A stretch of DNA of 64,000 nt from Yuukianura sp. NJ FZ-2021 (lineage: Eukaryota): positions 496,001-560,000 of the forward strand of contig CM102285.1 in the NCBI GenBank assembly GCA_046563655.1, in the 5' to 3' direction. Below, in pieces: positions 3,919 through 61,035 of the stretch (position 1 is the first letter of the stretch; each line of letters opens with the position of its first letter). Position numbers and translations under genes: made by a program. The notes beneath the pieces were generated by a model that ran no database searches, had not been told where the DNA came from, and worked only from the letters and a program-made list of their open reading frames with translations.

Positions 3919-4212
3919 GTGGCTGTTGAGATTTTCCACATTCATTGACTTGACCTCGAAAATGGGAGATCAAAGAAAGGTCAAACTCAGTTATTCATAA
4001 AATGAAATTCGATTTATTCTGCAAATGAACGTTTTGTAACATAAATTATTTTTGAATTATAGTGAAATTAAGGCACCCAATTTAAATTACGATTGTTATA
4101 AGTTAAAAGGCCGTAAAGCTTTAGTAATATTGTGTTGGCAAGCACGTTGGTTTCTGGCAAGAAAAGCGTCTACAATTCATTTCTACTTGGGAAATCGCTG
4201 AATCGCTGAATT

Positions 4213-5333: not shown

Positions 5334-5896
5334 TTAGAAGAAAGAGTTGGCTCGATTGATGACTTCTGCGCTGACAGCGTTTTTCTCTAGCCATTTTCTT
5401 GCTTTCGCTGCAACCAACTCCCACGATTCCTTCAAATGCTTCAGTTTTTGCTCTAAGTACGCAAGAGCCAACGCAGTTCCAAATCCAGCAGCATCCCATC
5501 CGTTTTTATCGCACTCTGAAAAAAATAAGAAGGAAAACTGCATGTGTTTCAAATTCTATTTAAAAAAAAACATTTTTTTGAATGTACCCGCTTTCAATTG
5601 CTTCAACTTGGCTCCAATAGCATCAGCAAATGACTGCGTCAGTGGAAACGATCCATCAAAAGACTGAGTTGCCACTAAAGCATGGAGTGACTTTTCCTCA
5701 GAACTTGACGGATTTTCTGACGAATCAATAGTTGAAGAGTCTCGTGTCGTCAAACGTTTTATTCCACTTGTAAAATCTAAAACAACAAAACACAATTAAA
5801 CTGGTTTAGCATTCAGTTAACTTAATAATTAATTTAACTTCAGTTACAGTAAACTTAAGCAATTCAGCGTGTCTTACTTTTAAGCATTTTCGTCAT
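5334..5896 (-). CDS. Stand-alone VWA5A C-terminal-domain protein, copy A (~129 aa)
   Basis: Exons 5878-5896, 5588-5776 and 5334-5515 in frame: MTKMLKNFTSGIKRL...LVATQSFDGSF...GWDAAGFGTALALAYLEQK...WLEKN. Confidence 0.78.
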
Positions 5897-7012
5897 TCCT
5901 GATCCTGAAAAGTTTTTTTGTTTAAACAAGTTCGTTAATTTTTTATAAAAGATTTATCAAAATAACTGCTAATTTCTTGGCAGCAAGACTTTAAAAAATT
6001 TAAAAATGGAAATGGATACAATGTTGTGGGCATACTGGATTCCGAGTACGAACCGTCTACTGCTTCACCGAATTTGCCAACGGGAGCACATTTTCTTGTT
6101 GGTTCACATCTATCCACTGTGGAAAGTGTAAAAGTAAAAGTTACAAGTCAATCAAACTAAAAGTTAAAACTCAATTAAAGTAAAATTTAACTAAACAACA
6201 CCGTTCAACTCAGCCGACGCACAGAAAAGCAATGTAACAAAACACGCAACCTGAGAAAACGCACAAAACAAACTGGCATTCCAAATTAAAAAAAAAGTTC
6301 TTGTGAACATTCGCGCCAACGGCTGTAACTTACTACTGCAGGCGACTTCATCTGTGTCTAACATATAACATCTAAGTGCTCCTCCCGTTCGAAACTTCAG
6401 ACCACTTTTTTTTGATAAATCTGTTCAAGAATTTAAAAAAAAGCAGTGCAGTTAGTTGAGTTAGTAAAAGTTGTTTAAAAGTTAGTTTAGTTAAGCAACG
6501 CAAATAAGCATAGCGACTTTCCAGAAACTTTGTTCCGAATCCCCCACATTCCCAACCCGAGAATTCCCCAAAACCCCCACCAGAAATCCCCAAAACCCAC
6601 ACCTGAAAAATCCCCACAATGAAGAAAGTTAATTAACACTTTTACTTTGAACTTTTAATTACGTTAACTGTTGATCATTTTCTTAAAATCCTACAAATAC
6701 TGGCTACAATTAACAAGAGAGTCTGTCGTGGCAAGAATACTGTTTACATTTAATTCGGCAGCATCAAAGTACATTTTTTGTTCAATAGTAAATACCTCTT
6801 ACGTTAGACTGCCGTTCAAATTGTTTGTACTGCCAAATATTAAACAAAGTTTTAACAATCTTTCAAATTAAACAAAAATAGGCATTGAATTTCAGGTAAA
6901 ACAATTTAAGACTTTGTAAAAGCAAATAGACCATTCTATCTTATTGCTAGCAAGCCCCTCCACCAATCAGCACCGCTGATTTACACGGGCAGCAGAAATC
7001 GCTGCTTGCTTC

Positions 7013-28194: not shown

Positions 28195-29277
28195 ATGAGT
28201 GCACCAGCTACAAAATTTTTAGAAGTCTTGATGACAGCCACGCTTGACTTGTTCGAGAACATTTTTCCTTCGGCCATCAGTCAAGCCCAGTGGTGCGAAG
28301 CTGGAGTTCGTGAAGCCTTTGCTACTGCCAACTTCGTCCAGGACACCCTCCTCAAAATTGATTCTCTCTACGCAGAACTACTATACGCTCAAATTTCCAA
28401 ATCTTGCCAAACTTGCCTCAGTCCATGTCTTCGGGAAGACTCGTACCTGTCCTATACGACCATTCCAGAACGACTGGACATTGCATTTGAAATTAACCCT
28501 TATCTGTCACGAGACTTCAAGGAACTCATACACCTCTACTTTCTACAAATGTTTGGCCAAGTACCCTCCGACCGATCGACCTTCTACGCTCAACTCCTTC
28601 TGAGACACTACACTTCGAATCAGTCCTCCTCCCAGGGTCAACTCCACCATGTACTGCCAAGTATCCTCCAGCATGCCAAGTATCAGCTGTCGCTAACTCA
28701 GGGACACCAACGTCACAAAACCATTCAGAAGATACTCCAATCAATATCTCTAAGGTCATACACATTGGACGAAGCAAGGTTCGTCCACACCAGCATCCTA
28801 GTCATGCTGGGTCATCCAGAATGTGACTTTGCCAGTGACGTTGTGATGACGTTGAGGCGGGAACTAGCTCGGACGGACGTCTGGGACCCAGAACTGCTTG
28901 ACTTCTACTTCCTGGATGCTGATCCAGTACTTTTGCGTTCAGCGATGTCAACTTTGGAGAAAAATGGAATTACAGCCTTGACGGTCCTGCTGATTGACAT
29001 TGTGAATTCGTATGCCTCAATAGCGAGACGGAAGATAACCAAAGTGGATCCTGTCAAACGGTACCTCAATCCAGACTATGATGTCCACAAATCAGTCACG
29101 GTGCGGTGGACACTGGACGGTGTCCATTTTAACTTCAAACAGTGGCACAATATTGTTCAAATAGCCGCTCGTGATGTGTTTAGATCTGGAAAAAATGCTT
29201 TTGAGCAACAACTTCTTTCGGTGTCCCAAACTTCTGAAAAGTTTAATCACGATTTCTGGGAAGACTTGTTAAGTTAA
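28195..29277 (+). CDS. Uninterrupted 360-aa ORF, possible divergent FANCF-like protein
   Basis: Long ORF in intron-rich DNA. N-terminal F-E..S...W...VR.A...A.F pattern, internal INPYL, and C-terminal FWEDLL recall FANCF (WDPATVRRALQWARY...IWTDLL). The gene is probably real; the identity is tentative. Confidence 0.6.
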   Translation: MSAPATKFLEVLMTATLDLFENIFPSAISQAQWCEAGVREAFATANFVQDTLLKIDSLYAELLYAQISKSCQTCLSPCLREDSYLSYTTIPERLDIAFEINPYLSRDFKELIHLYFLQMFGQVPSDRSTFYAQLLLRHYTSNQSSSQGQLHHVLPSILQHAKYQLSLTQGHQRHKTIQKILQSISLRSYTLDEARFVHTSILVMLGHPECDFASDVVMTLRRELARTDVWDPELLDFYFLDADPVLLRSAMSTLEKNGITALTVLLIDIVNSYASIARRKITKVDPVKRYLNPDYDVHKSVTVRWTLDGVHFNFKQWHNIVQIAARDVFRSGKNAFEQQLLSVSQTSEKFNHDFWEDLLS

Positions 29278-29458: not shown

Positions 29459-32400
29459 TCAATTATCTAAAACAAAAGAGTTTTGAAGTTCAGTAAAAGA
29501 GGATTCGAGCTCTTCCTTTTCTTCTTTCATCTCCTGCAGCAGGGTTTGCATACTCTGAAGAAGGTTGCTAGTTTCCGATTGCTTAGAAACTGCTTTGTAC
29601 TTTGGTGATGACATCAACGTTAGCAGGTCTTGGTCAAGTCCAAATCCACCACGTTTTCGTCTACTGCCTCCAGAACAGGACGGGCATCTCGATAAGCTCG
29701 GTTTGACAGTTGTCAGGTTCTGGATATCCCGAAGGTCAACACAGACTTGATACGCAGAAGAGCCAACCGACGAAAGCTTCTCTAGGACACACTCTTGACA
29801 CGCCTGTCAATCAATTAATCGTTAATTAAAACTTTTCAAAACAAAAACAACGGATAAGAAGTTGAGATTTCTTACCTCCAGCAACTCTCTCCATGGTATA
29901 CTTCTCTCTTTTCGTAAAAGTGACAACACGAAGTTGAATCTGCGGTAAACAAACAAACAAAAAAGAACAATTCAATTAGTTTGTCACTGAACAAACGTCT
30001 TCATCCAATAAGAAACGTTTGCCGTTTTCCTCCAACCAATCAGCTAGCTGTTTGAAAAACGTTTTCCCCACCAGTTAGCTGTTTGAAAAACGTTTTCCCC
30101 ACCAGTTAGCTGTTTGAAAAACGTTTTCCCCTACCAATCAGCTGCTTGCCGAACGTTTTTTTCCGTCAATCAGCTGTTTGGAAAACGTTTTCTCCCACCA
30201 GTCAGCTGCTTGAAAAACGTTTTCCCCACCAGTCAGCTGTTTGAAATACGTTTTCTCCCACAAATCAACTGCTTGAAAAACATTTCCCCCAACATTTACT
30301 TGCTTGAAAAAACGTTTTTTTGTCCCCACTAATCACCTGTTTCAAAATAAAAAACGTTTTTTTCCCCTTACCGAGTCCGTAAGTTGTCCGATATGTCGTG
30401 ACCTTCACTAACTTTGACAATTTCTTGCTTCAAACGTTCCGTGACCTCTGCTTGACCTGTGACCTTCCCTTGATGCCACTTTTGTATGAGATCTTCTGGA
30501 GGATCGATGAGCAACTGCCGTTCAAGTTCCTTTAAATTCTTGATTACTACTCCCAGCATCCCTGTTTCATGCGTAAAGCAAATATTCTGACAATACTTCT
30601 GGATCAGAAGCTTAGTGGCTCTTCCAGGCCACTTCTTAAGTACCCCCAAAGTGTCCATGTTCTGGATAAGCACTTTGAGGCCCTTGACAACGTCATTGTG
30701 CCCTTCATAGAGGTGACATGGACAAGTGACTCCGTTGAGCCTCTTGTGGAACACGTCTCGGATCATCGTTGCCGCAAAACTTGAAAATGGCAATAGAATC
30801 ACAGGGGGGTCCAGCGGTGGTCCGATTATCACAGATTCGGCTATCCATTGCAGACCGTTGACCAGCGCTGGAACGTTGTCCACTACATGTTGACCTTTGA
30901 TGACCTGAATCACTTTGCCCCTGTCACTACCACTTCCAGAAGACTCTTCACAAGTATCCAATCCCAGACGACTTCGAAGTTCAAATTCAGTTGAATCCGA
31001 TGAATTGAAGATCACCACAGGAACTTCTGGATTTCTGGTTACAAACGGCCGAAGTTTGTCCAATGTCGAAAAATGTTGACTTTTCTTGTCCTCAGACGCA
31101 GAAGTATTGAACAGCACAATTGCTTTCGTGTCTACACTTGCTTCCAGGTCAGCATCAGTACACTTCTGGAAGGTGACGAACCAGTTCCTGTCTTGGGTCA
31201 ATCGATGGGCACAGTACTTGGCAGTATTTCCAGCATTTCCAAGCATGACAGAGTCTTCAAGGAAACTGTTCCAAGTCCAATTGGCCAAGTAGTCCCACGG
31301 TCCAAATTCACTTGTGCTGGCCAGTACAATGTTGATGGCCACTGGAGGGTGCCACTCTGCGCAGATTTGCGGTACTGGCGGTACTTCGGAGAGTTTCGTC
31401 AGCAGCGGGCCTGCCAAGTGATGAATAATAGACGGACTGTATTCTTCTAAGTGCTTTTCAAAAGATCGCTTGACTTGCATTGCCCCTGAAATTCAAAAAA
31501 GTTTTCAAGAAATTCTATGTAAAACAAAAGTTATGAAAAAAAAGCCTGCCAGAAACAGGAGAATAAATGAAATGAAAATGAAAAAAATTCAAGTATTGGA
31601 AACGTTGAACTTACGTTCGAGCAATTGAAACGAATTGCTCTCACGCGACGGTTTGTCGACCAATGGCAGGACACCAGCCGACCACTGACTCAAAATTGTC
31701 ACTGCTGGATACTGGGCAGCTATGATTGGTGGAAAATTTTCAACATTCCACTGCTGTCGTTCCAGTTCTCGAATCCTAGCAACTTGTATTTCCTCAACAG
31801 CCGATTTCCACGTAAGTACCCAATGCCTCAGACGAATTCTCCCACAGATTTCGTCCAACTTCCTCAATCTGGCATCACTGCAACAAAATTTCCAAAAAAT
31901 AACTAAAAATTTTGAAAACTTTCTAACTTTCTAAAACAACGTTTCTAAAAAACTGTTCAAACTTACTTCTCAGCCTTCAACTTATTGTAGATTTCCTGCG
32001 CAACGGTCCTGATTTCCCCCAGTACGACGGTATTTCTAAGATCACTTTCAATTTTTGCACAACTGGAAGCGATTTGCTGCGCTTTCACAAATTCAATCTT
32101 CGCTGATTTCAGAATCGCTCGCTGGATCTCCTCTGCTTCGACCTTGAATTGAAATATATATTAATATTATGTGTTAAAATGTATTATAATATTATTAAAA
32201 TATATGATAATTTTATTGTTTTATACTACATTTTATAAGGAAAAAGCTCACCTGTTTGTAAATTTGCTGCACTATCGACTTCTTTAGCGCTTCTTTAGCT
32301 TCTCTGACCACCACTTCCTGCCTCACAACAGTCGCAACTTGTCTGACTTCTTTCGTCACAACTGCCTGCAGGATCTCTTGAGCCAGCTCATCTCGGAATT

Positions 32401-47893: not shown

Positions 47894-50800
47894 ATGGCAA
47901 CGTATGTGCTGTTGTTGTTTTATGTATTGACTACTACTATTGTTTCATTAAGTTATGCAGAGGACATATTGATTTTCAACTCCCCGTGGCTTGTTTACCG
48001 TAGTGTAGTTGCACATGGGCATGCAATCACTGTACGTCCGGGCAATTATATCCAAGTTGAACCGGAATTGGGAGAGTGGGACAATTGTGATAAAGGAGAA
48101 TACGCCATCGGAGTTTATGTATTCTATGAATCAAAACGTAAGTCAACTTCCGTAAAGCAAAATTTGGGTTTGGATTATACCTATATGTGCGCATGTTAAA
48201 AACAACAATTTCGAGAAGAGGGTCAATGACATCCCCAGACAACCCAAAAAAATGACTCCTAAAAAAGCTGTTAGGCTTGATGAGTTGCTCATTTTTGTCC
48301 TCTGACATATGGCCCTGCGACCTTCCGCTAAGGTCATAAGTCAATTTGAAGTTCTAACCTAACCTGATCAACTCATCAAGCGCAACAACGTTTGTAGAGA
48401 TCATTTTTTGGGTTGTCTGGGGGATGCCATTGACCCTCTTATCGAAATTTTTCTTTTTTTTTAACATGCGCACGTACAGGTATAATCCGACCAAATTTGG
48501 AGAAATTTTCGGTTACTTTTCGAAGTTCCATTACAAAATCTAATCGTTTCTGCTTGCAATTTAAAGCTGCCAAAGATGGAACTGCTATTAATGGCGTTTG
48601 CATTAATTGTGCTCCACTCGGTGTGGATACGAATGGCTTACCACTCGATAAGAAAAAGTGCAGCAGGATGACCTACGATTATGACAGGGAAAAGTACTAT
48701 AGGTGTCCCCCTCTGATGACTGGCTTTCAGGTGGCCAATGACGACCAGTTCGGTGGCGTCAAGACAGAACATGGGTATTTGTTTGGAATTACAGCGGTAA
48801 AGTTCTTCTGCTCAAATGGAGGGCACTTAGAATTCCCGACATACGAGAAAAGACCATACACAGAACCTGCGTATTGTTTAGCGGGACAAGCCGTTTGTGG
48901 AATTCGAACGCAAGTGGATCCGCATAATCGGCCAGAACGTCAGGAAAGTAAGTTTAGTTGCATTTGCCTGTACACTGGTATAAGCCTACTGTTCAATAGA
49001 AATTTTGGTGTCAGCAATTTTGCTGCACACCAGAATTGGCACAAGAATTGGTAATGCAGAATACAAATTGTGGTGTCATCGATATCGGTGTAGTCCACGC
49101 AAGCGATATTGGTGCTGCAGTTTTGTGGGGCAGTATAAAAATTCCGAACCTTTCATTGGTGGCCGACCTTTCAGTTCTCATCATTCAAATTCAAGTAACA
49201 ACCGCCAACTTTTAATGCCTCTCTCGAAGTTAATTAACTTTGAATATGAAAGCTTATGCTAAGATTTGCTAATTAGGGTTTTCCTATTTCGGTAATTAAG
49301 ATTTTGTGGTATTAATGTTTTTGGCGTCCTTACACACTGAAATATACGGGAGAAGTATCATAAAGTGACAAGCAGACGTTCGTGAACGTCTTCTCTTGAT
49401 TAAAAAACAAGGTAGGGCAATGCTCAAGGGTTGAGCATAGGTCTTCTGGAGGCAGTTGGCAATTGATACGACTTTTAGACCAGCTGTCCACAAACCCGTT
49501 GAAGAAAAACGTCAAGAAACCGTTTTCACGGGATTTATGCAACGAAACGTCGCTCATAACTTTCAGTGCAGATGTGGGGCCTTTTTGTGCACAATTGCAC
49601 CAAAATGTGAAAAAACCGTTTGCATAAGAATGTTGTTCAGCTTTAGCCCTGAACCGTTTTCACTCTCCTGAAAATTATTTTGGTTCACAACATTTCTGCA
49701 TCAAACTGTTAGCAAAATTATTTGGTGGACAATTGAATGGCTTCGCGGAACAATTATTGTTCTCCAGTATGCACAAATTTTGAAATAACAACGCCCATTA
49801 CCCAGCGTCAAAATAACTGTACAATTTTACATTTGTGCAATAAGTGTTCAACATGCACAAAATTGAACGTTGTGGAGTAGGGATCGAATATAGCTTCTAT
49901 AAAATCAAAATCGGTTCAAATAAATGCACCATGTCTTAAATTAAGTGCATAAGTTATAAACTCGAATATCCCTTGTTTATAATCAAAATTACGAAAATTT
50001 GTTGCAAAAGCAAATTTGAACCCTGCCAATCACTGTTTGCATGTTACGAATTTAAGCCGGATTTTCTACCCTCTAATTAGTCTTAATTTAACAACGTACC
50101 TAAACATAATATCAGAAAATGAGAACATCAAAACTTCGTTGTTTAAATATATTTTGAGTGCAATGCAGACCTAACACATAAATTTTGAGGACTTAAGAAA
50201 CTGCAACGCGAAGCAGCCGCATACTTTGACGTTGTTAACTTAACACTTTGAGTGCAATGTAGAGGTAGAGAAAACACTTGAGCCATACATGACCCCCCGA
50301 CTGCGATAGGGCTAATGTTTCAACGCAAAAGATACTAAACAAGGTAGGGCGATGCTCAAGGGTTGAGCATAGGTCTTCTGGAGGTAGTGGACAATTGATA
50401 CGGCTTTTAGACAGGCTGTCCGTAAACCCGTCTAAGAGAAACGTTAAGAAACCGTTTTTACTAGATTTATGCAACAAAACATCGCTCATAATTTTCAGTG
50501 CAGATGTGGGACCTTTTGTGCACAATAATTGCACTTGCACCAAAATGTTAAAAAACCGTTTGCATCAAAATGTTGTCCTAACTTTGAACAGTTTTCACTG
50601 TCTTCAAAATTATTTTGCTGCACAATTGTTCCCACATATGCACAGAATTTGACATCACAACGTCCATTACCCAGCGTCAAAAGAACTGCACAATTTTACA
50701 TTGATGTGCAATACATGTGCAACGTGCACAAGAATGAACGCTGGGGCGAGGGGTTGAATATCCCTTGTGAAAATCAAAATTATGTAAATTTCTAGTAAAT

Positions 50801-53800
50801 GCAAATTTGACCCCTGTTATGCACTATTCACATGTTAAACATTTAAGCCGCATTTTCTACCCCCTGATCAGTCTTAATTTAACAACGTAAATTAACATAT
50901 TGTCGGAAAATGAGCAGATCAAAACTTCGTTGTTAAAAAATATTTTGAGTATAATGCAGACCTAACACAAAATTTTGACGACTTAAGAAACAGCAACGCG
51001 AAACAGCCGCATACTTTGGCGTTGTTAATGTACGACTTTGAGTGCAATGTAGAGCTAATAGAAACACTTGAGCCAAACATAACCCCCCGACTGCGATGGG
51101 GCTAATGTTTCAGTGCAAAAGATACTAAAAAAGCGAACGGACGGACAGACGGACAGACAAAGTCGTATCAATAGTCTTCTTCAGCACGTCGTAGACGTGC
51201 GTCTCCAGAAGACTAAAAAGCGAACGGACAGACAGACAAAGTCGTATCAATACTCTTCTTCAGCACGTCGTAGACGTGCGTCTCCAGAAGACTAAAACTT
51301 TTTAGACATGATTGATAAGAACAAACTACTTACTAAACAACCTGGAACTGCATTGTCCATGTTGCCCTGACAATATAATAGCAAACACAGCGTTAATCAA
51401 GCTGCCTCAAAATAATGTTTAAAAAACCGTTTGCATCAACAAGTTGCAACTGAGCTGTGAACACTTTTTACTCACTCCAACATTATTTTGATGCACAGTA
51501 CAACGTTTATGTATTCTTTGTAGTCATAAGTGTGCATCATGCACAAAATTGAACGTTGATTGAAGCAGTCGAATGTCAAAGTAATGGTTCAAGTACATGC
51601 ACAATGTGACATTTGTATGCAACTGCTTATACCGTGTGCGCCAGCGAAAAGAGTACACCCTCAATTCAGTTTCCAAGGAAACTAGCTTAAAAATGAGCAA
51701 ACAATGGGGGCGGGGGGAAAACGACAGAGCAAAATATGTGAAAATTGTGTTTCCATTTTTTTCAAGGAAGAGGAAATTATTAGCCTGTCGATATTAGTTT
51801 TTCAGTACGTTTATCTTTTAATTAGGAACTGCTTCGTTGTACATAATGCCTTAGTATAGGACTCAACATCGCGCAGAAATGGTAGCTTATTACTATCACC
51901 AATCCAGTTTTAGAAAAGCCCAGTGTTTTCAGTGCCGTCCATCCAAATCTTCCGATTCCTAGTATTTTTACCATTCAGAGAGCTGTGAAGAAACACGGCA
52001 GCCAAGCAAATCCAAAAAAAGTCGCAACCAAAAAAGCTACCAATGACATGACCGCTGCATCCATTTTAGCCTATGTTTCTGCAAATCCACATGACTCAAC
52101 ACGAAGAATTGCACAGAGGTCAGGAATTTCAGCAACTTCTGTACGAAGAATCCTGAAACGCGAACGATTTCATCCATATAAGATAAGATGGAATTCCATC
52201 ACGCCTTAACTGACGATGACCCGAAAAGACGAATCGAATTTTGTGAGCAAATGATGGACATGTGCCTGCAGGATCCCAATTTGGTGTCAAAAATTTGCTT
52301 CACTGATGAGGCCACATTCTTTTTGAATGGGCGCATGAACCATCAAAACTTTCGGTTTGTAATGTCCACTTAACCAATTCTTGTGATTCCCATTCAAATT
52401 AAGATGAAATTATCCAGAAGCAAATTTGAAGATCGCTTAGGTTATTGTATTGTAGCAGAAGGTCGCCATTTTGAGCAAAATATGTAATATGTTTCCCCAC
52501 ATAGTTTCCTTGGTTTCGAAAATAAATAAGTTTTTGAAATTTTGGGTGTACTCTTTTCGTTGGCGCACACGGTATGTGTGCATCATGCACAAAATTGAGC
52601 GTGGAGTACGAGGCCTCGAATACAGCTTGTTTAAATTCAAAATCATAAAGTTTCGTGTGAATGCAAATTTGACCCCTTTCATTCACTCTTCACATATTAA
52701 ACATTTAAGCCGGATTTTCTACACTCTAACTAGGCTTAAATTAACAATGTGAATAGACATACTGTCAGAAAATGACAGGGTCAAAACTTCGTTGTTTAAA
52801 TATATTTTGAGTGTAATCGAAACCAAAATGTTTCCGGGAAACGACTGCACCTAGGGTGCATAAAGTGGCCGCCCATTTCCACGTTGTTAATATAACACTT
52901 TGAGTGCAATGTAGACTTAATGAAAACACTTGAGGCATACATAACCCCCCGGACAAAATGGAGCTTATGTTTTAGCGCCAAGTATCCTAAAAAATGTGAC
53001 AGACAGACAGACAGACAAAGTCGTATCAATAGCCTTCTTCAGCACGTCGTAGACGTGCGTCTCCAGAAGACTAAAACGGTTCAAACGTTTTCCTTTAGAA
53101 CGCTATAGCGTAGCGTTTATTAACAGAGCATTTTTTGAATACTACCTAAATGCAGTTTCAATTGCATATTTACATTAATGTGTTTTTTATTTCTGAACCT
53201 TAATTTAAAAACACTTGGACGAAACTTAAATACTAGAGATAAAATATTTCCAATAATTCTCTTCCGGGAGGAAGCGTTCCTAAGATTGAGGCACAGTTGC
53301 CACGTTGCATTTCAAGGCTAATTCTCTGGAAAAGGAATGACGTGGCTTTTTGTTCCCCAGTGTAGTCAGCAATCCGTTGGCCAATAGACTTCAGTATCTT
53401 CAGACCTTCGTCTCCAATGACCCCGGATGATTCAATTGCGATGATTGATACGATGAAACGATCTTCAAGTTCTGCGTAGACGTTATGTTTGTGTGTTTCG
53501 GCGAGAGCAGCGGCATGTCCGCAGACGTTTGAACATGAGTGGACATAGGATGATGCGAACGTATCCCGACATGTAAAATCCCACGCTAAGGAACGACCAG
53601 ACTTCCAAGGAATTAATGTGATGCCATCCGGTCGTTTTCCGTCAGATCTCGAACAACCGGGCGGTTCCTTGATGCTTGGAATTCCTGCTGAGCGAAGCGC
53701 TCGAAAGATTAAGTCGTTGACAGAGGTATGTCTGGAGTGGCGTCCAGCGCTTTTTAAACAGCTTAGGCCGTGAAGTCCGTCGCTAGAAACTTGAGCTCCG

Positions 53801-56800
53801 CAAACACATTTGTGTGAAAGGCAGATATCTGAGCCGAGGCGTAGAGCACATGAGATTCTGAAGCATTCGTTATTTAGCAGGGTGCCAAGTTGAGGAGAAG
53901 GAATCGCGTTCAGCCAGTCACCGGCATGTGGAGAAGCGACAGCAAGAAGGCGAGCTTTGTCAGTAGGCGTTGAGCAATTGTTAAGCAGCTCGTTGTAGGT
54001 ACTTTGACTGATTTCAAAGTCCCATTGTCTTTGTATTTTTGGATTTTCTGGAAGCACGAATCCTTTCTCTAACCATTGTGTAGAAGCCAGATCCAAAGAC
54101 AGATCGGAACGTGACAGATTGCTTGGCAGAAAGAGGTCGACGAGATCAGAACAGCAGTGGATTGAAGCCAAAAATGAAACGGTAGCACAATCGACTGCAT
54201 GACGGATTCCCAGACCTCCTTGGGAGACAGGAAGAGAAGATTGTAGCCAAGAGGAATCTGATAAGTTGATGTTCAGGGTGTTCACTAAGACTTGACGAAG
54301 AGAATTGTCGTAGGTTGTTAGTAGGTCGTTTTCCAGGAATGATGGGAAGCAACGTAGGAAGTAAATCAGCCTCGGGGTAGAAATAGAAGCTCGTAGGAGG
54401 AATAGTGCTGCGTGGGCAGGCAGTAAAGAGAGCTTAGCAGAGAGGCGACTGAAATCTTCAGTTTTCTTTTTGATTATGCGACGGCAGGAAGCAGTGGTTA
54501 GAGGTGCACCAAGCAGTTCGGCGTTTTCTTGGTTGGGGACGCCAATGTCGGCGGCAAAAGCGCGAAAAGAATTCACGATGGAGCAACTTTCAGATGGACT
54601 TGCGCTGAGGACAATGATTTCACATTTCTTGAAGTTGAGTTGTAGGCCAAAAGTAGCAGCATCTTCATCAATTCGCTTCAGTTCAGATAAGACGGCATCA
54701 GGAGAGTCTCCAATAGTAGCATCATCAAGATACCAGACATTGAATTCCGACTTGATAGAAGTAGCCAGAGGATGGACTGTCAGGGCAAAGAGGGCTGGAC
54801 CAAGGGGATCCCCTGCTGCACACCTAGACTGGACTTGATTCGGCAGGATCCATAGAACAAGTCGGAATCCGTTGAGTAGGATTGAGATATGAAGTTGTAG
54901 AACTCAGGGAAGTTATGTTTTACTGATTGCAGCATTTTGTCTCTTCGAATAAGATTGAATGCGTTGCGGAAGTCTAACTTGAGCAGCACCTTAGGAGATG
55001 GATGAGGAGTATTTGTGTAGATTCTAGCAGCATGGGCGATTGCTTCTGCTCCGTTTTTCACACCAACGCCAACTTGTGCAGGACTCAGGAATGGGGTAAG
55101 ATTCTTCATCATTTCGGACAGGACGAGTTTCGAAACTAGGCGCCGCCAAACCAAACCAATTGCAATCGGACGAATGCCTCCTGTTTTCTTCTCAATGGCG
55201 ACCAGCGAGGCTCCGAAAAATAGTGGACGAATTTGATCAGGAAGAGAACCATTAACAACGAGATTCGCTAACTTCGTAATCGAAGATATGAGGTTGATCC
55301 CTGCATCTCCCGTTGATTTTCCGATTAGCTCCTTGAGAATTTGTGGTCGCAAAGAATCTAGGCCTCCTGAAGAACCATTCCGGAATGATAGGATGGACTT
55401 TGTTATTTGTTGATCTTCCAAATGGATTTCGTTTGGCTGTGTTTGAACAGGAAGTTGACTTGGTTCGGGGTGTTTTGGATGCAGAAGCTGTAGGGCGGCA
55501 AGTGTGGCAGTATCTTCGGTAGCCAAAGAGTCGTCGCAGCAGAGTATACGAACAGCTCCGTGGATGTCGCCATCAGCAAGCTTGGAGAGAATCCGAGAAG
55601 ACAATTTAAAGTCTGAAGGTTTTTTCTGACTGGAGTGGAAACCGGAATTGGAGATTGAAGATGAGTGCAGGTTCAAAGGTAATGATGAAGGGAAGTTAGA
55701 AATCTTGTACTTCACCCACGTTGTTAGATTGGAAACATTGTCAGACTTCTTAGGTGAAGACAGAATGAAGAAAGGAAATAATAATAGTCTTGACCAGGAC
55801 TCCTTGGAATTACACGAGACGACATCATTGATCAACTTGGAAAGGCATTCAGCCGTTGAACGTCTGGCTCCCTTCGGAACATGTTTGAGAGTGGGAACTG
55901 ATGTTTTCAGATTGGCGAGCAGTAGACCGAGGTCGTGGTTTTGAGATTTATCAAATTCATTTGACGGAAAGTTTGTCCAGGTAATGCCACAGTAGGAACG
56001 ATCAGCATGTCTGCGACCACCGGCACGAGTGATGGTCAAATCGGGGAATAGTTTGTGTAACTTGGATCCCAGTGTAGCTTCAACAACCGGACGAATTTTG
56101 TTTGAATCACAGTACTCACGGTATCTTGATTTGAGGTCAAGTTTAGTTATCGTAGATCCAGGACATGAAGTAATGTTAGATAAAATCCATTCTTCAGTGA
56201 GCCTGATGTAGTGTGACGAGTACATTAATTATTTGGTAAATTAAAAATTTATCAGTTAATTGTTTCAATTAAATTACATCGTAAGGAGACGAATCTCATC
56301 TCTGGATTTTTAAAGTTTTCCTTACCCGCTTCTAATATGGACATAAGAATTGCCGTCACTAAGAAATCCTTATGACGGCTATTATTTTGTCTTACTAAGA
56401 ATGGTAGTGGAAACACTCTACCAACCTTGATGACACTGTAATCGGCCTAGAAAATTGAAATCAATGCTGCCCCACAAAAATTCCTAGTGGACAGACAAGG
56501 GAGCACGCCATTGGTTCAAATGAATTGGTTCAAATCCAATTGGTTCAAATGAAAAGGTTCAAAACCAATTGGTTCAAATGAAAAGACTCAAAACCAATTG
56601 GTTCAAGAGGCCAAGACTCGCCGATAGAAGTGGACAGACAAAAGTGGATTCTTACAAAAGTGGATATTTTACAAATCCTACTTTACGAATGAGTACCCTA
56701 CAAAAGAGGATACCTACAAAAGTGGATCCTTACAGAAGTGGATTGCGACAAAAATGGATATGCTTCCTGGTAGTCAACCTACTACACTAGCATTGTTTAC

Positions 56801-58251
56801 GTAATCTAACCTAACCTAACCTAACGAAAACCAACATCAAAAATCAAAAAACCTAACCTTGACCTGAACCGAAAGTCATTAATACTCGAATACCTAGCCT
56901 AACCTATGATGAAAAAAGTTGAGAGAAATTAAAATTATTATAAGTGCCTACAAAATGTTTTTTTTTAATCCCGAAGCACAAAATTCCTATCCAAAAGTAA
57001 AATAGTTCAATATCCACTTTTGCCGCAATCCTCTTTTGTAAGGGTCCACTTTTGTAAGAATCCTCTTCTGTAAAGATCCACTTTTGTAAGTATCCTCTTT
57101 TGTAGGGTACGGATTTGTAAAGTAGGATTTGTAAAATATCCACTTTTGTAAGAGTCCACTTTTGTCTATCCACTTCTGTCGGCGGACCCAAAAACTAAAT
57201 AAATATATTTATTTAGTACCAAATCCGGTTTCATCTTCCCGCGCCGAAGGCGCGTTGTTAGGTTAGGTTATTAAATTCCCCGTAGGGATACCAAGTTAGG
57301 TTAGTAGTTAGGTTTCTGCAGCCTGTTTTTTTTAAGTTAATTAGGTTTTGAACAAATTGGTCTGTTGAACCAATTAGCATCTTGAACCAAATAGTTTTGA
57401 ACCAATTTTCTTTTGAACAAATTTACCGCTTGAACCAATTGGTCTCTTGAACCAATTGGTTTTGAACCTTTTCATTTGAACCAATTGGATTTGAAACAAT
57501 TCAATTGATCCAATGGCATGGAACCGTGGACAATAGCCTTAACGGAGGCGAAAAAACTGCTAACTTTGCGAGAACCGAATGCCCTCCCCTTTCTATTCTA
57601 CTATACACTTTAACCACAGGCAGACTTTTAAATTTAATTATGTTACATTTTTAATTTTTAGAGCTTGGATTGGTGAACATATACATGAAGTGTTGCGATA
57701 TCGTGCCTCCCGGTCTCGTAGACAATTGCACCGCATCGGATAAATGGCAAGAAATTAAAAGTTGCGACAATGTAAAGGGTAGCAAACTAATCGAATGCAA
57801 GTATGAGACGTCACTTGGCACTGCAAAAGCAACCATGAGTAGTCAAACAAGGGCAGTAATGAATGCGCTAGAAGCTGCTAAAAGCGTATCTGATGGGTTC
57901 AATGAAGATTTTGATCTAGTCGGTTTAAAAGCACGTTTTTCTGCCATTCGCGGAAACACGACGGGCTACGATTGGAGCAAAGAGTCATCTGACACGTTTC
58001 AATACCTAACTACAACTACTAGCATAGTCAATGTTACTGCGGGGATACACACTACGTTATTTCAGGTCGTTGGAACCTGTGGCATGTACACAGTCTACTC
58101 GTCTACAATAGTACGCGTGGATACCAAAGTTTCAGATTCTGCGCCTCCGCCTAAGGTGTTACCAAGTGGCTTCCTGTGTGACAAAAACAGCACGACAACC
58201 GGCACCAATATCGGAAAATCAAACCTGACCAATCTTATACCACCAACTTAG
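47894..58251 (+). CDS. Type B1: signal peptide + VMO-I domain + aerolysin-like C-terminal domain (~404 aa), with an 8.7-kb TE-filled intron
   Basis: Exons 47894-48137, 48567-48947 and 57662-58251 in frame: GEWDNCDKGEYAIG, DGTAINGVCINC, CLAGQAVCGIRTQVD, GLVNIYMKCC...YETSLGT...GYDWSKESSDTF...TLFQVVGTCG. Confidence 0.8.
48160..48497. mobile_element. MITE in intron 1 of gene B1
   Basis: ggattatacctatatgtgcgcatgttaaaa is mirrored by ttttaacatgcgcacgtacaggtataatcc. Confidence 0.7.
49340..53075 (+). mobile_element. Tandem, diverged Helentron/HINE (DINE-1-like) non-autonomous repeats
   Basis: Repeated ~1-kb blocks; three 3' ends (about 51130-51215, 51220-51296 and 52995-53075) with a (GACA)n microsatellite followed by hairpin gcacgtcgtagacgtgc and ...ccagaagactaa. 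Confidence 0.6.
51632..52572 (+). mobile_element. Deleted Tc1/mariner element with transposase remnants
   Basis: TA-ccgtgtgcgccagcgaaaagagtacaccc...gggtgtactcttttcgttggcgcacacgg-TA; frameshifted STRRIAQRSGIS..SVRRILK..FHPYK and ICFTDEATFFLNG. Confidence 0.85.
53233..56225 (-). mobile_element. CRE-clade-like non-LTR retrotransposon (RT + restriction-like endonuclease), one frameshift near 54810
   Basis: GGIRPIAIG, KLDFRNAFN, GVQQG/DPLGPALF, WYLDD, CVCG..HGLSC..RH, RPDG..WDFTC; the two ORFs join if one G is added. Confidence 0.9.
56508..57518. mobile_element. Two nested inverted-repeat (foldback/MITE) elements
   Basis: Outer arms are aattggttcaaa / tttgaaccaatt arrays; inner arms (56620-56760 and 57010-57190) are tacaaaagtgga / tccacttttgta arrays. 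Confidence 0.7.
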
Positions 58252-58344
58252 CTTGGAAGTAGGATTACTTTATTTGAAAGAAATACATTTAAAATACAAT
58301 GTCCGGTTTCAACAAGGTTACTTGACACCAAATTATATTTTCTA

Positions 58345-58561
58345 CAACAGGTTGTTCAATAACTCTAAGTTTTATCAGTTTTGAGTGAAAACAATTTTTT
58401 GCGCCAATTATGTTTACTCCACCAAATCTGCGTCATTCGTGTTCCACTAACATTACAACAAATTCGATTTTAAAAGACATTGCCAGAGAAACGAGGCTGA
58501 AGTGACTCGGTTTCATTTTTGAAAATTTTCGCAGAAAACGCAGAAAAGGAACAACCTGTTG
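58345..58561. mobile_element. Short derivative of the 44-46 kb mariner family
   Basis: TA-caacaggttgttc...gaacaacctgttg-TA, similar to the 44093/46255 TIRs. Confidence 0.6.
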
Positions 58562-58905
58562 TAGAAAAAACAATCTGCTCGTTTCGCAAGCTCGAGTTTC
58601 TAATAAAAAAAAATTAGTAAGTCAATAACGAATTTGGTATTAAAATATCTGTCTTTATGGAGAAATTAGGCTGCTGTTAATGGTATTAAGCCTCACCACA
58701 CCCGCAGTACGACAAATTTATGTGGTTTTCTAAAAAAGATAATAGGCGCCACATCTCAAAATTTCCTTGAACTATACTCCAGCTTTTCCATTTACCAGAT
58801 CCTATTGAAATGAGATCGAAAAACGTAAGAAAAAGTTGGCTGAACAATCATTCTCTGAACAATAGTTTTTATAAATTTTTTAAACAGGATTTCGCTACTA
58901 CTGAA

Positions 58906-61035
58906 ATGTTGAGATGGTTTGTACTTCCCGCATTGTTTACCGCAGCTACGTCAGCCGCTGCTGAAGTCTGCATACAACCAAATTTGACACTCGCGAGCGG
59001 ATCAACAGTACTCAAAAGTCCGGTTTTAGAGGAATTTGGAGCGTGGGGCAAGTGGGACGCATGTCCCCCGGGCACTTTTTTTGCTGGCGTTCAGCTCAAA
59101 GTTGACGCAGGGCGACCCAAATACAACACAATTCCACCTTATAAGGACCACTATGACAACACAGCACTCAATGGAGTTCGGTTCCTTTGTTCAAAAGTTG
59201 GAGAAAACCGGTTTACCAAAGAGCAACCAATAAGTGCCGTAGGTCATTATGGTGAGTGGTTAGCACCGTTGTTCTGCGACATTGGTGTCATCAATGGATT
59301 CCAATTGCGTCACGCCATTTATGTCAACAACACCTTAATAAAAGCAGTAGAGGACAGAGTCGACAACATGGGAGTGGTTAACTTGCGTATTCACTGCGTC
59401 AAAACGGAAAACCGCATGCTTTGGCTGGAAGGCAGCGTTCGAGATCAACAAGACGCTTTCCCTGAGTGAGTAATGTTTAAAATTTAAAAACTGAGTCAAA
59501 TTCTGGAAGACCAGAATTTTTGAGGTCTAAACTGCCGGTGTTATTTAGGTCTCCAAGCTACAAAAATCCAAGGGTTTGGGTTGAAAAACAAATTTGCGGA
59601 GCGGGACAAGCTTTAACAGCTGTTCGGACGCAAGTAGATCTACGCAAAAAAGGTACTATAATATATAAATACTATATATTTATTACATATTTATATTGCA
59701 TATTTACTATATTATACATATACTATATAGTGGGCGTCAGCTAAAACAGTGCATCCCAAATTGTTTAATTTTGCAGCTATTAGGGAAAACCAGTAAAATT
59801 AGACGATTTTAAAAAAATCAATCATAAGAGTTAACTAAAGTTTCACATTTTTAGTTATCTTTACTTCCATGTTAACCTTATTTCCAACTCGTTTCTATGC
59901 TAAAAGATTACACCCCTAACAAAATAGGGGTGTACTCTTTTAGCTGACGCGGACTGTATAAACACTATAATATGCGTATATAATGTAGCCTTAAGAGGTT
60001 AAAATGGTTAAGTTTTAGGTTGTTTTTTTTCAATCTTTTATAAAATTTACATTTTTGATCAATTTTGTGTTAACTTTTTTATGTATAGTAAATAGTAAAG
60101 ATGCGGCCAAAACCAACGACGTAAGGGGCTTGATAAACATTGAGATGCGATGTGACCATATCAAGACGTCCTTAGAAACATGCGATCCAAAACTCTTTTA
60201 TCAACAGATTCTGGAATGCAACAACATTAAGGGAGCGGGCCCTCTAAGTTGCAGGTATTAAATACAACCTACAGAAAAACTTATAACTATGGGTCACATG
60301 GCTGGAGAGGCAACGAACGAGAGTGCAGAAAAAATAGGTTCTATCTAGGAGGCACTCTAACCCTTGAGCTATCAGGTCCCAATTCTACAACCTCTCGAAG
60401 AATGGAGCAATTAGAACACCACATTCTGTTGTGTAGTTCAATGTTAAGGTTTATATGTTTTTCAATTTTAATGCTATGTATCGGAAGCTTTAATGCTAAG
60501 GTTATTTACGTTGATGCTATGTATGTTAGCGTTCATAATGTTTTGTTATGCTAACGTTCTGCTATGTTACAGATACGAAACAAAGGTTGGTACGCAGTCA
60601 TCTCAGGCCAATCGCAAAACGGAGAACAACATGCGTTCTATCCTCGGTTCTCTTGGCGTTTCTGCAGAAGTGAAAGTGGCCGGTTTTTATACTAAAATGA
60701 ACGCAATGATTTCGGCGGGAGTGGACAACGGAGACACGAGTATCAACGAAACATCGGAATTTTGGCAAGGAGAAACCACTTCAGGCGCTTCAGTTACCGT
60801 CGAGGCCAACCGGGTTCAACGAATTTTCCAAGTCCTCGGTTCCTGTGGAGATACAGAAGTAAGAACATCCAGAATTATTGTAGACGAGAGAATCGGTGAC
60901 GTTCCGAATACATTACCGAAAACTGGGTTCGTGTGTACCGATCCAAGGAAAGTTCCTGGCGGTAAAACCCGAAAGTTGCCGTCAGTCAAGCACTTCCAAC
61001 GCTCCGATAAAGCAAACACCAAAGACGAATTTTGA
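58906..61035 (+). CDS. Type A2: signal peptide + VMO-I domain + aerolysin-like C-terminal domain, ends in KDEF (~430 aa)
   Basis: Exons 58906-59465, 59549-59652, 60089-60254 and 60573-61035 in frame; same intron positions as A1; DNTALNGVRFLCS, CGAGQALTAVRTQVD. Confidence 0.87.
59729..59956. mobile_element. Mariner-type MITE in an intron of A2
   Basis: gcgtcagctaaaacagtgcatccc is mirrored by ggggtgtactcttttagctgacgc; TIR similar to the 51632 element. Confidence 0.6.

What the first reader, a model, noticed from the sequence alone, without database searches (positions are those of the whole stretch)
55975..56225. RFX-type winged-helix DNA-binding domain at the N-terminus of a CRE-like retrotransposon
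Seen: EEWILSNITSCPGSTITKLDLKSRYREYCDSNKIRPVVEATLGSKLHKLFPDLTITRAGGRRHADRSYCGITW aligns by eye with the RFX DBD pattern (WL..NY....G.S.PR..LY..Y...C....L.PVNAASFGKLIRSVF..LRTRRLG.RG.SKYHYYG). It is in frame with the RT and has no introns. Established: RLE-type elements (R2, CRE, NeSL) normally carry N-terminal C2H2 zinc fingers and/or Myb domains for target recognition; none is visible here. Inference: a lineage that swapped in a winged-helix targeting module, with possibly new insertion specificity.
Basis: partly seen in the sequence, partly recalled or inferred. Interest (0 to 1): 0.7.

Follow-up and report, generated by a model that had tools for sequence, protein, structure and literature searches.

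The report
LINE retrotransposon carrying an RFX domain
A nearly intact jumping gene of the R2-like kind carries, where its relatives have zinc fingers, a DNA-binding domain borrowed from the RFX family of transcription factors, showing that the DNA-aiming part of such elements can be exchanged in nature.

Summary
On the minus strand, residues 10-83 of a 481-aa ORF (window 55977-56198) match Pfam RFX_DNA_binding (E 4.8e-11, 43.6 bits, cut-off 27). The folded domain matches only the RFX5 and RFX1 DNA-binding domains strongly (TM 0.83-0.91).

The host element is a single-ORF non-LTR retrotransposon of about 3.4 kb. It has a YLDD reverse transcriptase, a Cys/His knuckle and a restriction-like endonuclease, colinear with R2 proteins (profile E 1.5e-32). 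One frame break lies in a homopolymer run, and contigs of public runs do not share it.

The fusion is a family feature. Nine of 120 homologues (two from Folsomia candida) and four further metagenome loci carry RFX, often behind a PHD finger and once a SAP domain. All RFX rows in the tree (8 homologues plus the window) lie in one subclade, interleaved with relatives that have C2H2-like fingers.

The label "CRE-like" and any new insertion specificity could not be tested. This copy lies between two high-copy repeats, with no RNA gene or X-box nearby. No paper in the searched library describes the architecture. Verdict: a new variant of a known kind, of moderate interest.

The parts
53078..56505 (-). 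Whole element, about 3.43 kb: 5' UTR, one long ORF with one frame break, 3' UTR, no poly(A) tail
   Evidence: The lower boundary is where the high-copy 75-nt unit ends (53077). Three window copies of the unit diverge after ...GACTAAAAC, and contigs have loose ends at 53077. The upper boundary is where the high-copy inverted-repeat arm begins (56504-56510), with loose ends at 56499. A contig in runs X2 and X4 joins 53077 to 56551 with 29 letters between that resemble 56506 onward, which reads like an empty site. That evidence is weak because the shorter side is only 28 nt.
56226..56505 (-). 5' untranslated region, about 280 nt
   Evidence: A TAA stop lies two codons upstream of the ATG at 56225. 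All three frames upstream are closed and show no PHD-like or finger-like pattern.
54813..56225 (-). First part of the ORF (471 aa up to ...GVQQ-G): RFX domain, linker, conserved helical region, RT fingers and palm
   Evidence: tblastn with P0001 gives 52% identity over residues 3-462.
55977..56198 (-). RFX-type winged-helix DNA-binding domain (residues 10-83)
   Evidence: Pfam E 4.8e-11. PDB sequence hits RFX5 and RFX1. Model plus Foldseek, TM 0.83-0.91.
55938..55970 (-). Probable flexible linker (residues 86-96)
   Evidence: pLDDT is below 50 in the 481-aa model, between two confident domains.
55197..55931 (-). Helical region conserved in the whole family (PTLK..PKGAR, DGD..GA.R motifs) and the N-terminal extension of the RT (residues 99-343)
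   Evidence: Conserved across all 18 homologues of alignment A1, whatever their N-terminal module. The R2 alignment starts at profile position 288, within this region.
54502..55196 (-). Reverse transcriptase domain; YLDD active-site motif at 54721-54732
   Evidence: RVT_1 from residue 344. YLDD is read in the second frame. Colinear with R2 and L1 RTs.
54810..54813 (-). Frame break: a homopolymer run (G on the minus strand) is one base short, between ...GVQQG and DPLGPALF...
   Evidence: Contigs of public runs carry one more base here: X1 in 2 of 2 contigs, X3 in 1 of 1, X4 in 2 contigs making 190 of 356 depth.
53233..54810 (-). Second part of the ORF (525 aa + stop): RT palm and thumb, linker, Cys/His knuckle, endonuclease
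   Evidence: tblastn with P0001 gives 55% identity over residues 453-988. Alignment A1.
53728..53808 (-). Cys/His zinc knuckle (C-x-C ... H ... C ... H)
   Evidence: C, H, C and H columns are nearly invariant in A1. It aligns to the R2 knuckle.
53480..53640 (-). Restriction-like endonuclease core (..KRPDG.. then ..WD.. then ..K..Y)
   Evidence: D874 is nearly invariant. The profile alignment runs through the R2Tg endonuclease to profile position 973.
53078..53232 (-). 3' untranslated region, about 155 nt, ending ...CGTTTGAACC
53003..53077 (.). Flank, not part of the element: a very high-copy 75-nt unit with a 7-bp hairpin and a (CAGA)n/(TCTG)n run
   Evidence: Other copies lie at 51145-51223 and 51224-51298. 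Summed contig depth in this bin is about 40-250 times that of the element body.
56506..57520 (.). Flank, not part of the element: a foldback-like inverted repeat built of 14-16-nt subrepeats
   Evidence: Inverted pairs 56504-56577/57447-57520 (95%) and 56619-56758/57045-57184 (91%).

Best explanation
This is a young, nearly intact copy of an autonomous non-LTR (LINE) retrotransposon of the class that carries a restriction-like endonuclease (RLE), the class that includes R2, NeSL/Utopia, CRE, HERO and R4. One polyprotein of about 997 aa carries, in order: an RFX-type winged-helix domain, a short flexible linker, a family-specific helical region, the reverse transcriptase (YLDD), a linker, a Cys/His knuckle and a PD-(D/E)xK endonuclease. 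Shown: the domain identities, their order, their colinearity with R2, and the recurrence of the RFX fusion in a subclade of the family whose other members have C2H2-like fingers at the same place. Inferred: the RFX domain does the job that the N-terminal zinc fingers and Myb do in R2. It would bind double-stranded DNA beside the insertion site and place the endonuclease and RT for target-primed reverse transcription. The ancestor of the subclade took the domain from a host RFX gene, probably together with a PHD finger. N-terminal cassettes were later exchanged or lost between related elements. The window's lineage (with P0001) kept RFX alone and has a diverged wing, so its DNA preference probably differs from the classical X-box.
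For: RLE-LINE identity: a profile of 20 family sequences hits R2 proteins 9nl3_A and 9dou_A at E 1.5e-32 and 2.7e-32 over profile positions 288-973. That span covers RT, thumb, linker, knuckle and endonuclease. L1 ORF2p is hit over the RT only, at E about 1e-14. YLDD is present and there are no stops apart from one frame break.

The fusion is a family feature:
- RFX reaches the Pfam cut-off in P0001, P0002, P0003, P0004, P0014 and P0015, and is weaker in P0013.
- A family RFX model finds 9 of 120 homologues.
- Metagenome loci L006 (63 bits), L007 (44 bits) and L064 (39 bits) reach the cut-off; L002 scores 19 bits, below it.
- Two carriers are annotated proteins of Folsomia candida.
- W13 and F60 are invariant across 10 domains that are 21-46% identical to the window's domain.

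Position in the tree: the 9 RFX rows (8 homologues plus the window; truncated P0014 left out) fall in one 15-row clade (support 99), and the window is sister to P0001 (support 100). The neighbours P0008, P0012, P0011, P0017, P0029, P0016 and P0019 have C2H2-like patterns where RFX sits.

A flexible tether is suggested by pLDDT below 50 at residues 86-96, between two confident domains.

The element is multi-copy and recently active. Contigs of four runs lie at 99% or more, 95-99% and 88-95% identity, and they carry an open frame at the break.
Against: No DNA binding and no target site were shown. Only one copy with flanks could be read. It has no target-site duplication and lies between two unrelated high-copy repeats.

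No X-box and no half-site lies within 150 nt of either junction (the consensus was recalled, not taken from a call). No RNA gene is near.

The wing is poorly conserved: 5 of 15 positions are identical to RFX1 in the alignment. The nine DNA-contact residues named in PMC2533330 appear only in a figure, so they could not be checked.

P0005, P0007 and P0013 have domains too diverged for the Pfam cut-off, which could mean relaxed constraint.

The RT tree rejects one clean origin of the RFX group (AU p 0.0002), so the history is more complicated than a single capture. The C2H2-like fingers of the neighbours do not reach Pfam cut-offs.

The window's copy as assembled is frame-broken.
Confidence: 0.72

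Rival explanations
1. The RFX-like winged helix does not pick the DNA target. Instead it binds the element's own RNA, a nucleosome or a host protein, helping RNP assembly, nuclear import or chromatin tethering. Site choice would then rest with the endonuclease and the RT-linker region.
For: The wing that reads the major groove in RFX1 (PMC2533330, passages) is poorly conserved here, with 5 of 15 positions identical. The best structural match is RFX5 in a nucleosome-bound complex (8zjr). Relatives combine RFX with a PHD finger and a SAP domain, which by recalled knowledge are chromatin-facing modules. No X-box lies near the insertion.
Against: The domain sits exactly where R2-type elements and the closest relatives carry DNA-binding fingers. 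Older-looking members keep a canonical wing, for example P0002, L006, P0014 and P0015. The basic residues of the wing (R..GGRR) are kept in the window.
Confidence: 0.2
2. The domain is a decaying passenger. It was captured once and no longer serves the element, at least in the window's lineage.
For: Pfam scores of the transposon-borne domains (19-70 bits) are far below those of cellular RFX proteins (109-120 bits). Three carriers fall below the cut-off. The tree needs at least 3 changes of the label, which may include losses.
Against: The frame stays open across it in every carrier. The fold is predicted with confidence. Core residues are invariant across elements whose proteins are only 39-52% identical. 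A useless 80-aa N-terminal block would be expected to be lost by 5' truncation and recombination.
Confidence: 0.06
3. This is a chance juxtaposition or an assembly chimera: a piece of a host RFX gene next to an unrelated LINE.
For: Nothing positive, except that the locus lies in a nest of repeats.
Against: The reading frame is continuous from the RFX domain into the RT. A contig of runs X1 and X2 spans 56192-56526 without a difference. The same order of domains occurs in 9 proteins and 4 further loci from other sources. No RFX BCD domain is present, whereas the cellular RFX proteins scanned have one.
Confidence: 0.02

Closest known systems
R2 retrotransposon proteins (R2Tg, R2Pm, R2Bm; PDB 9nl3, 9dou, 9nl2, 8gh6)
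   Same: One ORF with RT, thumb, linker, Cys/His knuckle and C-terminal restriction-like endonuclease in the same order (profile E 1.5e-32 over positions 288-973). A DNA-binding module sits at the N-terminus on a tether. No AP-type endonuclease is present.
   Different: The N-terminal zinc fingers and Myb are replaced by an RFX winged helix. A roughly 190-aa helical region (residues 99-287) found no R2 counterpart by sequence. This copy is not in rDNA. The RT motif is YLDD.
Other RLE-bearing LINE clades: NeSL/Utopia, CRE, HERO, R4 (as described in PMC4640811)
   Same: RLE LINEs whose N-terminal parts vary between lineages. In PMC4640811 (passages read), Utopia has one to three zinc fingers, some members have a Ulp1-like protease, and oomycete ones have an RNase H upstream of the RT. 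Many insert into repeats.
   Different: The passages read mention no RFX, PHD, SAP or OTU module (0 occurrences of 'RFX', 'PHD' and 'winged').
Cellular RFX transcription factors (RFX1-8; RFX5 is the best match)
   Same: The same DNA-binding fold with a single wing. The Pfam family is met.
   Different: There is no BCD/dimerisation domain, which the scanned cellular RFX proteins P0137, P0138, P0140, P0169 and P0176 do have. The score is much lower (44 against 109-120 bits). The wing is diverged. The domain is fused to an RT and endonuclease.
Retroelements aimed by a chromatin reader (chromodomain-bearing Ty3/gypsy 'chromoviruses'; recalled, no call)
   Same: An analogy only, and for the relatives of the window's element: a reader-type module (PHD; SAP) joined to the integration machinery.
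   Different: A different element class and a different enzyme (integrase). The window's element itself has no PHD finger.

Membership tests
RFX DNA-binding domain (Pfam PF02257) | Score at or above the Pfam gathering cut-off over most of the profile | tested here: met
   43.6 bits against 27, profile positions 4-77 of 79, E 4.8e-11.
RFX DNA-binding domain (Pfam PF02257) | Winged-helix fold with one wing (H1-S1-H2-H3-S2-W1-S3), closest to solved RFX domains | tested here: met
   Model pLDDT 85.1. RFX5 TM 0.83/0.91 and RFX1 TM 0.74/0.87, rmsd 1.6. The next hits are at E>=0.2.
RFX DNA-binding domain (Pfam PF02257) | Conservation of the nine DNA-contacting residues of RFX1 | tested here: inconclusive
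   PMC2533330 says nine residues contact DNA but marks them only in a figure. In the wing stretch, 5 of 15 positions are identical to RFX1 (alignment).
RFX DNA-binding domain (Pfam PF02257) | Binding to an X-box | not testable with these tools
   Indirect evidence only: no X-box in the window and no half-site within 150 nt of the junctions (consensus recalled).
Cellular RFX transcription factor | RFX domain together with B, C and D (dimerisation) domains (Pfam BCD_RFX) | tested here: not met
   Only RFX_DNA_binding and RVT_1 were found in the ORF. BCD_RFX was found in six of the 19 RFX-profile hits scanned (P0137, P0138, P0140, P0169, P0171, P0176).
Non-LTR retrotransposon with restriction-like endonuclease (RLE LINE) | LINE-type reverse transcriptase with an intact Y/F-x-D-D motif | tested here: met
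   RVT_1. YLDD at 54721-54732. R2 and L1 RTs are the best sequence and fold matches.
Non-LTR retrotransposon with restriction-like endonuclease (RLE LINE) | C-terminal Cys/His knuckle followed by a PD-(D/E)xK endonuclease, and no AP endonuclease | tested here: met
   The family profile aligns through the knuckle and endonuclease of R2Tg. C, H, C, H and D columns are nearly invariant. No Exo_endo_phos hit. A single-sequence search of the C-terminal half found nothing in the PDB; only the profile reached R2.
Non-LTR retrotransposon with restriction-like endonuclease (RLE LINE) | N-terminal zinc fingers and/or Myb | tested here: not met
   No such Pfam hit and no C2H2-like pattern in residues 1-345. 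This is the point of the finding. It is a usual feature rather than a defining one, since Utopia members vary.
R2 clade proper | Insertion in 28S rDNA; Myb domain | tested here: not met
   No Rfam family at gathering score in window 48000-59000 or in 8 related loci. No Myb.
   No reference sequences, Repbase or Dfam are on hand. PMC2829327 (RTclass1) is not held.
   No Rfam hit in the flanks. This feature holds for the trypanosomatid founders only (recalled).

The most novel reading that the evidence does not exclude
In one RT-endonuclease chassis, nature has repeatedly exchanged the N-terminal aiming cassette: C2H2 fingers, OTU plus fingers, RFX, PHD plus RFX, and SAP plus PHD plus RFX. The RFX cassette would give these LINEs a new way of choosing sites, either a DNA word unlike the X-box or a chromatin state read together with the PHD finger. 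The window's copy, set exactly at the joint between two high-copy repeats, would be an example. That would make the family a natural model, and a source of parts, for re-aiming R2-type insertion.
Probability: 0.3. Interest if true: 0.7.

Novelty: new variant of a known kind. Interest (0 to 1): 0.5.

Why it matters
RLE-bearing LINEs such as R2 are studied as tools for putting genes into chosen sites, and the work turns on how their N-terminal domains find DNA (reviews PMC13580325, passages read; search listing). This family shows that the aiming module can be replaced on an otherwise conserved RT-endonuclease body, and that a host transcription-factor domain (RFX), with PHD and SAP in relatives, has been recruited for it. 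If the domain does set the site, it gives a directly testable natural swap. Compare the insertion sites of RFX-bearing and finger-bearing sister elements, then exchange the cassettes.

It is also a case of a transposon capturing a transcription-factor domain, the reverse of the usual domestication story. If the domain has no role in targeting, the finding is a modest addition to the list of accessory domains in LINEs.

Tried and rejected
Searches that gave nothing or could not be made:
- No whole genome is held for the window. A census of copies and an insertion-site consensus were therefore impossible.
- A word-indexed search with residues 1-100 found nothing (6 candidates, none scored).
- A single-sequence PDB search with the C-terminal half gave 0 hits. 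Only the family profile reached R2.
- ESM Atlas was unreachable twice. When it answered, the best scores were 0.77 to unnamed clusters, which is no lead.
- PMC2829327 is not held.
- Earlier findings of this scan showed nothing by place, sequence or words.
- No RNA holder was listed among the sequencing runs.
- Rfam found no family at gathering score in the flanks or in 8 related loci.
- No X-box or half-site lies near the junctions (recalled consensus). PMC5838959 did not give the consensus.
- A window pattern search for the 75-nt unit used wrong spacing and matched nothing.

Readings considered and rejected:
- The 8-nt TTTGAACC at the element's 3' end and in the 5' flank as a target-site duplication. 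The inverted-repeat arm runs on about 10 nt past it on both arms, so it is more likely chance or microhomology.
- The 75-nt unit with its (TCTG)n run as the element's own 3' tail. The two other window copies start at the same base, contigs have loose ends at 53077, and the summed depth steps by about 40-fold. This reading is not fully excluded.
- The tandem subrepeats at 56510-56614 as the element's 5' UTR, as in L001, where 5' tandem repeats lie in frame. They are mirrored at 57447-57520 and have roughly ten times the depth. This reading is not fully excluded either.

Unreliable hints:
- The higher summed depth at the 3' end than at the 5' end of the element looks like 5' truncation. The tool warns that contig depth is no copy number, so it is not used as evidence.
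- Pfam did not confirm the single C2H2-like fingers of the neighbours at cut-off. They rest on a pattern match.
Full report
WHAT IS THERE. The finding lies on the minus strand; the + strand reading of 55975-56225 is full of stops. A 481-aa ORF runs from the ATG at 56225 to 54780. Pfam finds two families in it. RFX_DNA_binding matches residues 10-83 (E 4.8e-11, 43.6 bits, cut-off 27, profile positions 4-77 of 79). RVT_1 matches from residue 344 (E 4.5e-7, 30.2 bits, cut-off 29.6).

The match is well beyond chance. Against all PDB sequences only two chains come up at E<=1, the RFX5 domain (8zjr_M, E 7.9e-7) and the RFX1 domain (1dp7_P, E 1.8e-4). An AlphaFold model of residues 1-90, built on ten related domains, has pLDDT 85.1 and the order H1-S1-H2-H3-S2-wing-S3. 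Foldseek against the PDB puts RFX5 (E 5.9e-6, TM 0.83/0.91, rmsd 1.6 A) and RFX1 (E 1e-4, TM 0.74/0.87) far ahead of every other winged helix (E>=0.2). Only 2 of at least 500 matches reach E<=0.001.

THE ELEMENT. The ORF breaks at 54810-54813, between ...GVQQG and DPLGPALF.... A second frame then continues for 525 codons to a TAG at 53233-53235. Read through with an X at the break, the product has 997 residues and no stop. The second frame holds YLDD (54721-54732), a thumb-like region with the family motif GGLGIR, a Cys/His knuckle (53728-53808) and a stretch ..KRPDG....WD....K..Y (about 53480-53640).

By itself this half finds nothing in Pfam or the PDB. A profile of 20 family sequences, however, aligns with R2 proteins (9nl3_A E 1.5e-32; 9dou_A, R2Tg, E 2.7e-32) over profile positions 288-973. 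That span runs from the N-terminal extension of the RT through thumb, linker, knuckle and endonuclease. Human L1 ORF2p is matched over the RT alone (E about 1e-14). A fold search with a 481-aa model agrees: L1 and R2 RTs, plus RFX5 and RFX1 for the first domain. The element is therefore a single-ORF LINE with a restriction-like endonuclease (RLE).

In that model the RFX domain is followed by a stretch of pLDDT below 50 (residues 86-96) and then by a confident helical domain (residues 99-180) that the whole family shares. The DNA-binding domain looks tethered, as in R2.

THE FRAME BREAK AND OTHER COPIES. No genome is held for the window. Four public DNA runs, kept as contigs, hold the stretch. 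Three come from one sample of 'organism A' and one from 'organism B' in another study. Laid on 52500-57100, their contigs fall into near-identical (99% or more) and diverged (88-95%) classes all along the element, so there are several subfamilies.

At the break, the contigs carry one more base in the homopolymer run: X1 in 2 of 2 contigs, X3 in 1 of 1, and X4 in 2 contigs making 190 of 356 depth. One of these contigs has only 3 other differences in 480 nt. The break is therefore either private to this copy or an assembly error, and open-frame copies exist. Some copies also have an in-frame 6-nt insertion behind 55443. The region is richer in G+C (45.5% at 54001-56000) than its surroundings (about 38-40%).

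BOUNDARIES AND FLANKS. On the lower side the element abuts a 75-nt unit (53003-53077) that has a 7-bp hairpin and a (CAGA)n run. Two more copies stand in tandem at 51145-51298. All three are alike up to ...GACTAAAAC and differ after it. Contigs of the runs have loose ends at 53077, and the summed depth of that bin is about 40-250 times that of the element.

On the upper side, from about 56506, lies one arm of a foldback-like inverted repeat. The arm pairs are 56504-56577 with 57447-57520 (95%) and 56619-56758 with 57045-57184 (91%). The repeat is made of 14-16-nt subrepeats, again of high depth, with loose ends at 56499. That gives an element of about 3.43 kb (53078-56505), with a 5' UTR of about 280 nt, a 3' UTR of about 155 nt, no poly(A) tail and no target-site duplication.

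One contig in X2 and X4 joins 53077 to 56551 with 29 letters between. Those letters begin like 56506 onward, and the contig's depth is close to that of the contig unique to this locus (71 against 81 in X2). It reads like the same joint without the element. The shorter side is only 28 nt, so I count it as a hint.

Rfam finds no RNA gene in 48000-59000. Neither a full X-box nor a half-site lies within 150 nt of the junctions (the consensus GTNRCC N0-3 RGYAAC is recalled, and PMC5838959 did not give it). Nothing can be said about specificity from one copy.

IS THE FUSION REAL AND SHARED? Among longer proteins in the large collection, 140 score E<=0.001 of the 8000 candidates scored. The best is P0001 (988 aa, 52% identical, 97% of the query covered). 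In the listing the Pfam RFX family is already recorded for 6 of the 120 shown. My own scan of 15 of them gives RFX at or above the cut-off in six:
- P0001 (39 bits)
- P0002 (70 bits)
- P0003 (36 bits)
- P0004 (32 bits)
- P0014 (48 bits)
- P0015 (58 bits)

P0013 scores below the cut-off (21 bits). P0003 and P0004 have a PHD finger in front that reaches the cut-off. P0002 and P0014 have one below it. P0015 has SAP plus PHD. P0004 and P0014 are annotated proteins of the springtail Folsomia candida. A model built from the ten aligned domains finds the nine proteins it was built from, and no other, among the 120.

A scan of metagenome contigs gave 457 relatives, of which 80 were kept. The match reaches the RFX part in 5 of the 80: L001 (the contig of P0001), L002, L006, L007 and L064. 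Pfam confirms RFX in L006 (63 bits), L007 (44 bits) and L064 (39 bits). In L002 it is weak (19 bits). L007 has a PHD-like finger in front, and L002 has one in a short ORF just upstream in another frame; both are below cut-off, at E 2e-4 to 5e-4.

The reverse question was put to 1.84 billion representative proteins with the domain profile. It returned 2032 hits at E<=0.001. Of the best 150, only 5 carry the LINE core: P0001, P0007, P0013 and the fragments P0222 and P0209. Of the 145 others, I scanned 17 by Pfam: they are cellular RFX factors with the BCD domain, RFX5-like proteins, or proteins with two to five RFX domains in a row. The fusion is thus rare among RFX domains, but it is a settled feature of one LINE lineage.

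WHERE IT SITS IN THE FAMILY. I built a tree of the RT-to-endonuclease core from 57 of the first 70 homologues plus the window. Only homologues whose match covers the core in one piece were kept, so truncated rows such as P0014 were dropped. The tree puts all 9 RFX rows in one clade of 15 (support 99), with the window next to P0001 (support 100).

The six other rows of that clade, and its nearest outgroups, have something else at the N-terminus:
- P0008 and P0012: two C2H2-like patterns each
- P0011, P0017 and P0029: one each
- P0016 and P0019: an OTU protease domain plus two patterns
- P0009: cut at the contig end
- P0010: only a doubtful remnant

Pfam does not bring these single fingers to cut-off.

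On a 24-row IQ-TREE (LG+G4) the RFX label needs at least 3 changes. A tree that holds the RFX rows together is rejected (log-likelihood 112.7 lower, AU p 0.0002). Note that the group was named after the first tree had been seen, and that several rows have odd composition.

The simplest reading is that fingers are the older state, as in R2 and Utopia (PMC4640811, passages). An RFX cassette, probably with PHD, entered this subclade, and N-terminal cassettes were then exchanged or lost more than once. The window and P0001 have RFX alone. The window's 5' UTR shows no trace of a PHD finger.

HOW IT PROBABLY WORKS. In RFX1 the wing reads the major groove and helix 3 touches the minor groove (PMC2533330, passages). 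In R2 the N-terminal domains bind DNA beside the cleavage site and place the protein for nicking and target-primed reverse transcription (review PMC13580325, passages). By position and by analogy, the RFX domain is the target-binding module of this element. That step is inferred, not shown.

The wing of the window's domain is much changed: 5 of 15 positions are identical to RFX1 in the alignment. P0002, L006, P0014 and P0015 keep a canonical-looking wing. The window's lineage probably prefers another DNA word, or the domain may have turned to another partner, which is the main rival reading. The PHD and SAP domains of the relatives suggest that chromatin or scaffold-type DNA is also read. That rests on recalled knowledge of those domains.

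WHAT IS KNOWN. Full-text searches found no paper that links RFX with such elements:
- 'RFX DNA-binding' with 'retrotransposon': 0 papers.
- 'winged helix', 'restriction-like endonuclease', 'retrotransposon': 0 papers.
- 'RFX', 'non-LTR', 'endonuclease', 'reverse transcriptase': 3 papers, all on other matters by title and abstract.
- 'RFX', 'retrotransposon', 'target-primed reverse transcription': 1 paper, unrelated.

The Utopia paper and the 2026 R2 review have no occurrence of 'RFX' or 'winged'. [quoted passage not shown] That paper and its supplements were not seen and may include such elements. Repbase and Dfam could not be consulted. The proteins themselves are in public databases with automatic names such as 'R2DM'.

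I therefore rate the finding a new variant of a known kind. The clade name 'CRE-like' remains untested.

VERDICT. Interest is moderate (0.5). Accessory and targeting domains of RLE LINEs are known to vary. Even so, a captured transcription-factor domain at the aiming position, interleaved on the tree with finger-bearing sisters, is a neat and testable natural swap.

Noticed in passing
window 53003-53077; 51145-51223; 51224-51298 (variant, opposite orientation, near 49440-49500 and 50370-50430): A 75-nt unit with a 7-bp hairpin (GCACGTC..GACGTGC) and a (CAGA)n/(TCTG)n run. In the public runs the summed contig depth of its bin is about 290,000, against about 500-7,000 for the LINE, so it is one of the commonest repeats of this genome. 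It bounds the 0.8-0.9-kb repeats next to it in either orientation.
   Followed up: partly
window 49500-53000: Three to four copies of a repeat of about 790-940 bp (74-91% alike), side by side. One of them is interrupted around 51600-52600.
   Followed up: partly
window 56504-57520: A foldback-like inverted repeat with arms made of 14-16-nt subrepeats (TTGAACCAATTGG... and ATCCACTTTTGTAAG...). (TAACC)n-like runs lie near the centre. It has high depth in the runs.
   Followed up: partly
window about 51960-52350 (+): By eye, the translation looks like the helix-turn-helix start of a mariner/Tc1-type transposase, broken by stops. It was not tested with any tool.
   Followed up: no
window 58810-59469 (+); 57670-58251, 60493-61035, 62954-63661 (+): An ORF with a VOMI domain (E 1.3e-18). 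Three ORFs similar to one another by eye (CCDI..PG.VD.C..SDKW...) have no Pfam family and alternate with it. This is possibly a tandem gene cluster.
   Followed up: partly
proteins P0121-P0127: Proteins of 867-1089 aa with four or five RFX DNA-binding domains in a row (Pfam total up to 293 bits) are the best hits of the transposon-derived RFX profile. This architecture is unusual for RFX proteins. Their origin is unknown, because the library gives no names.
   Followed up: partly
L001 158-1210: Upstream of the RFX domain, and in frame with it, lie about 350 codons. Most form some 20 tandem copies of a 14-residue repeat (SD..SEIQDSA..I). These are probably tandem repeats of the 5' region rather than coding sequence.
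   Followed up: no
window 55443: Some copies in the public runs have six extra bases (TGATCA) behind this place, which is in frame. This is a length variant in the poorly conserved stretch before the RT.
   Followed up: no
proteins P0016, P0019: Sister elements carry an OTU-type cysteine protease domain (50 and 48 bits) in front of two C2H2-like fingers. This is another N-terminal module in the same LINE family.
   Followed up: partly
window 28195-29277 (+); 30368-31480 (-): These are the only other ORFs of 250 aa or more in the first 52 kb. They were not examined.
   Followed up: no
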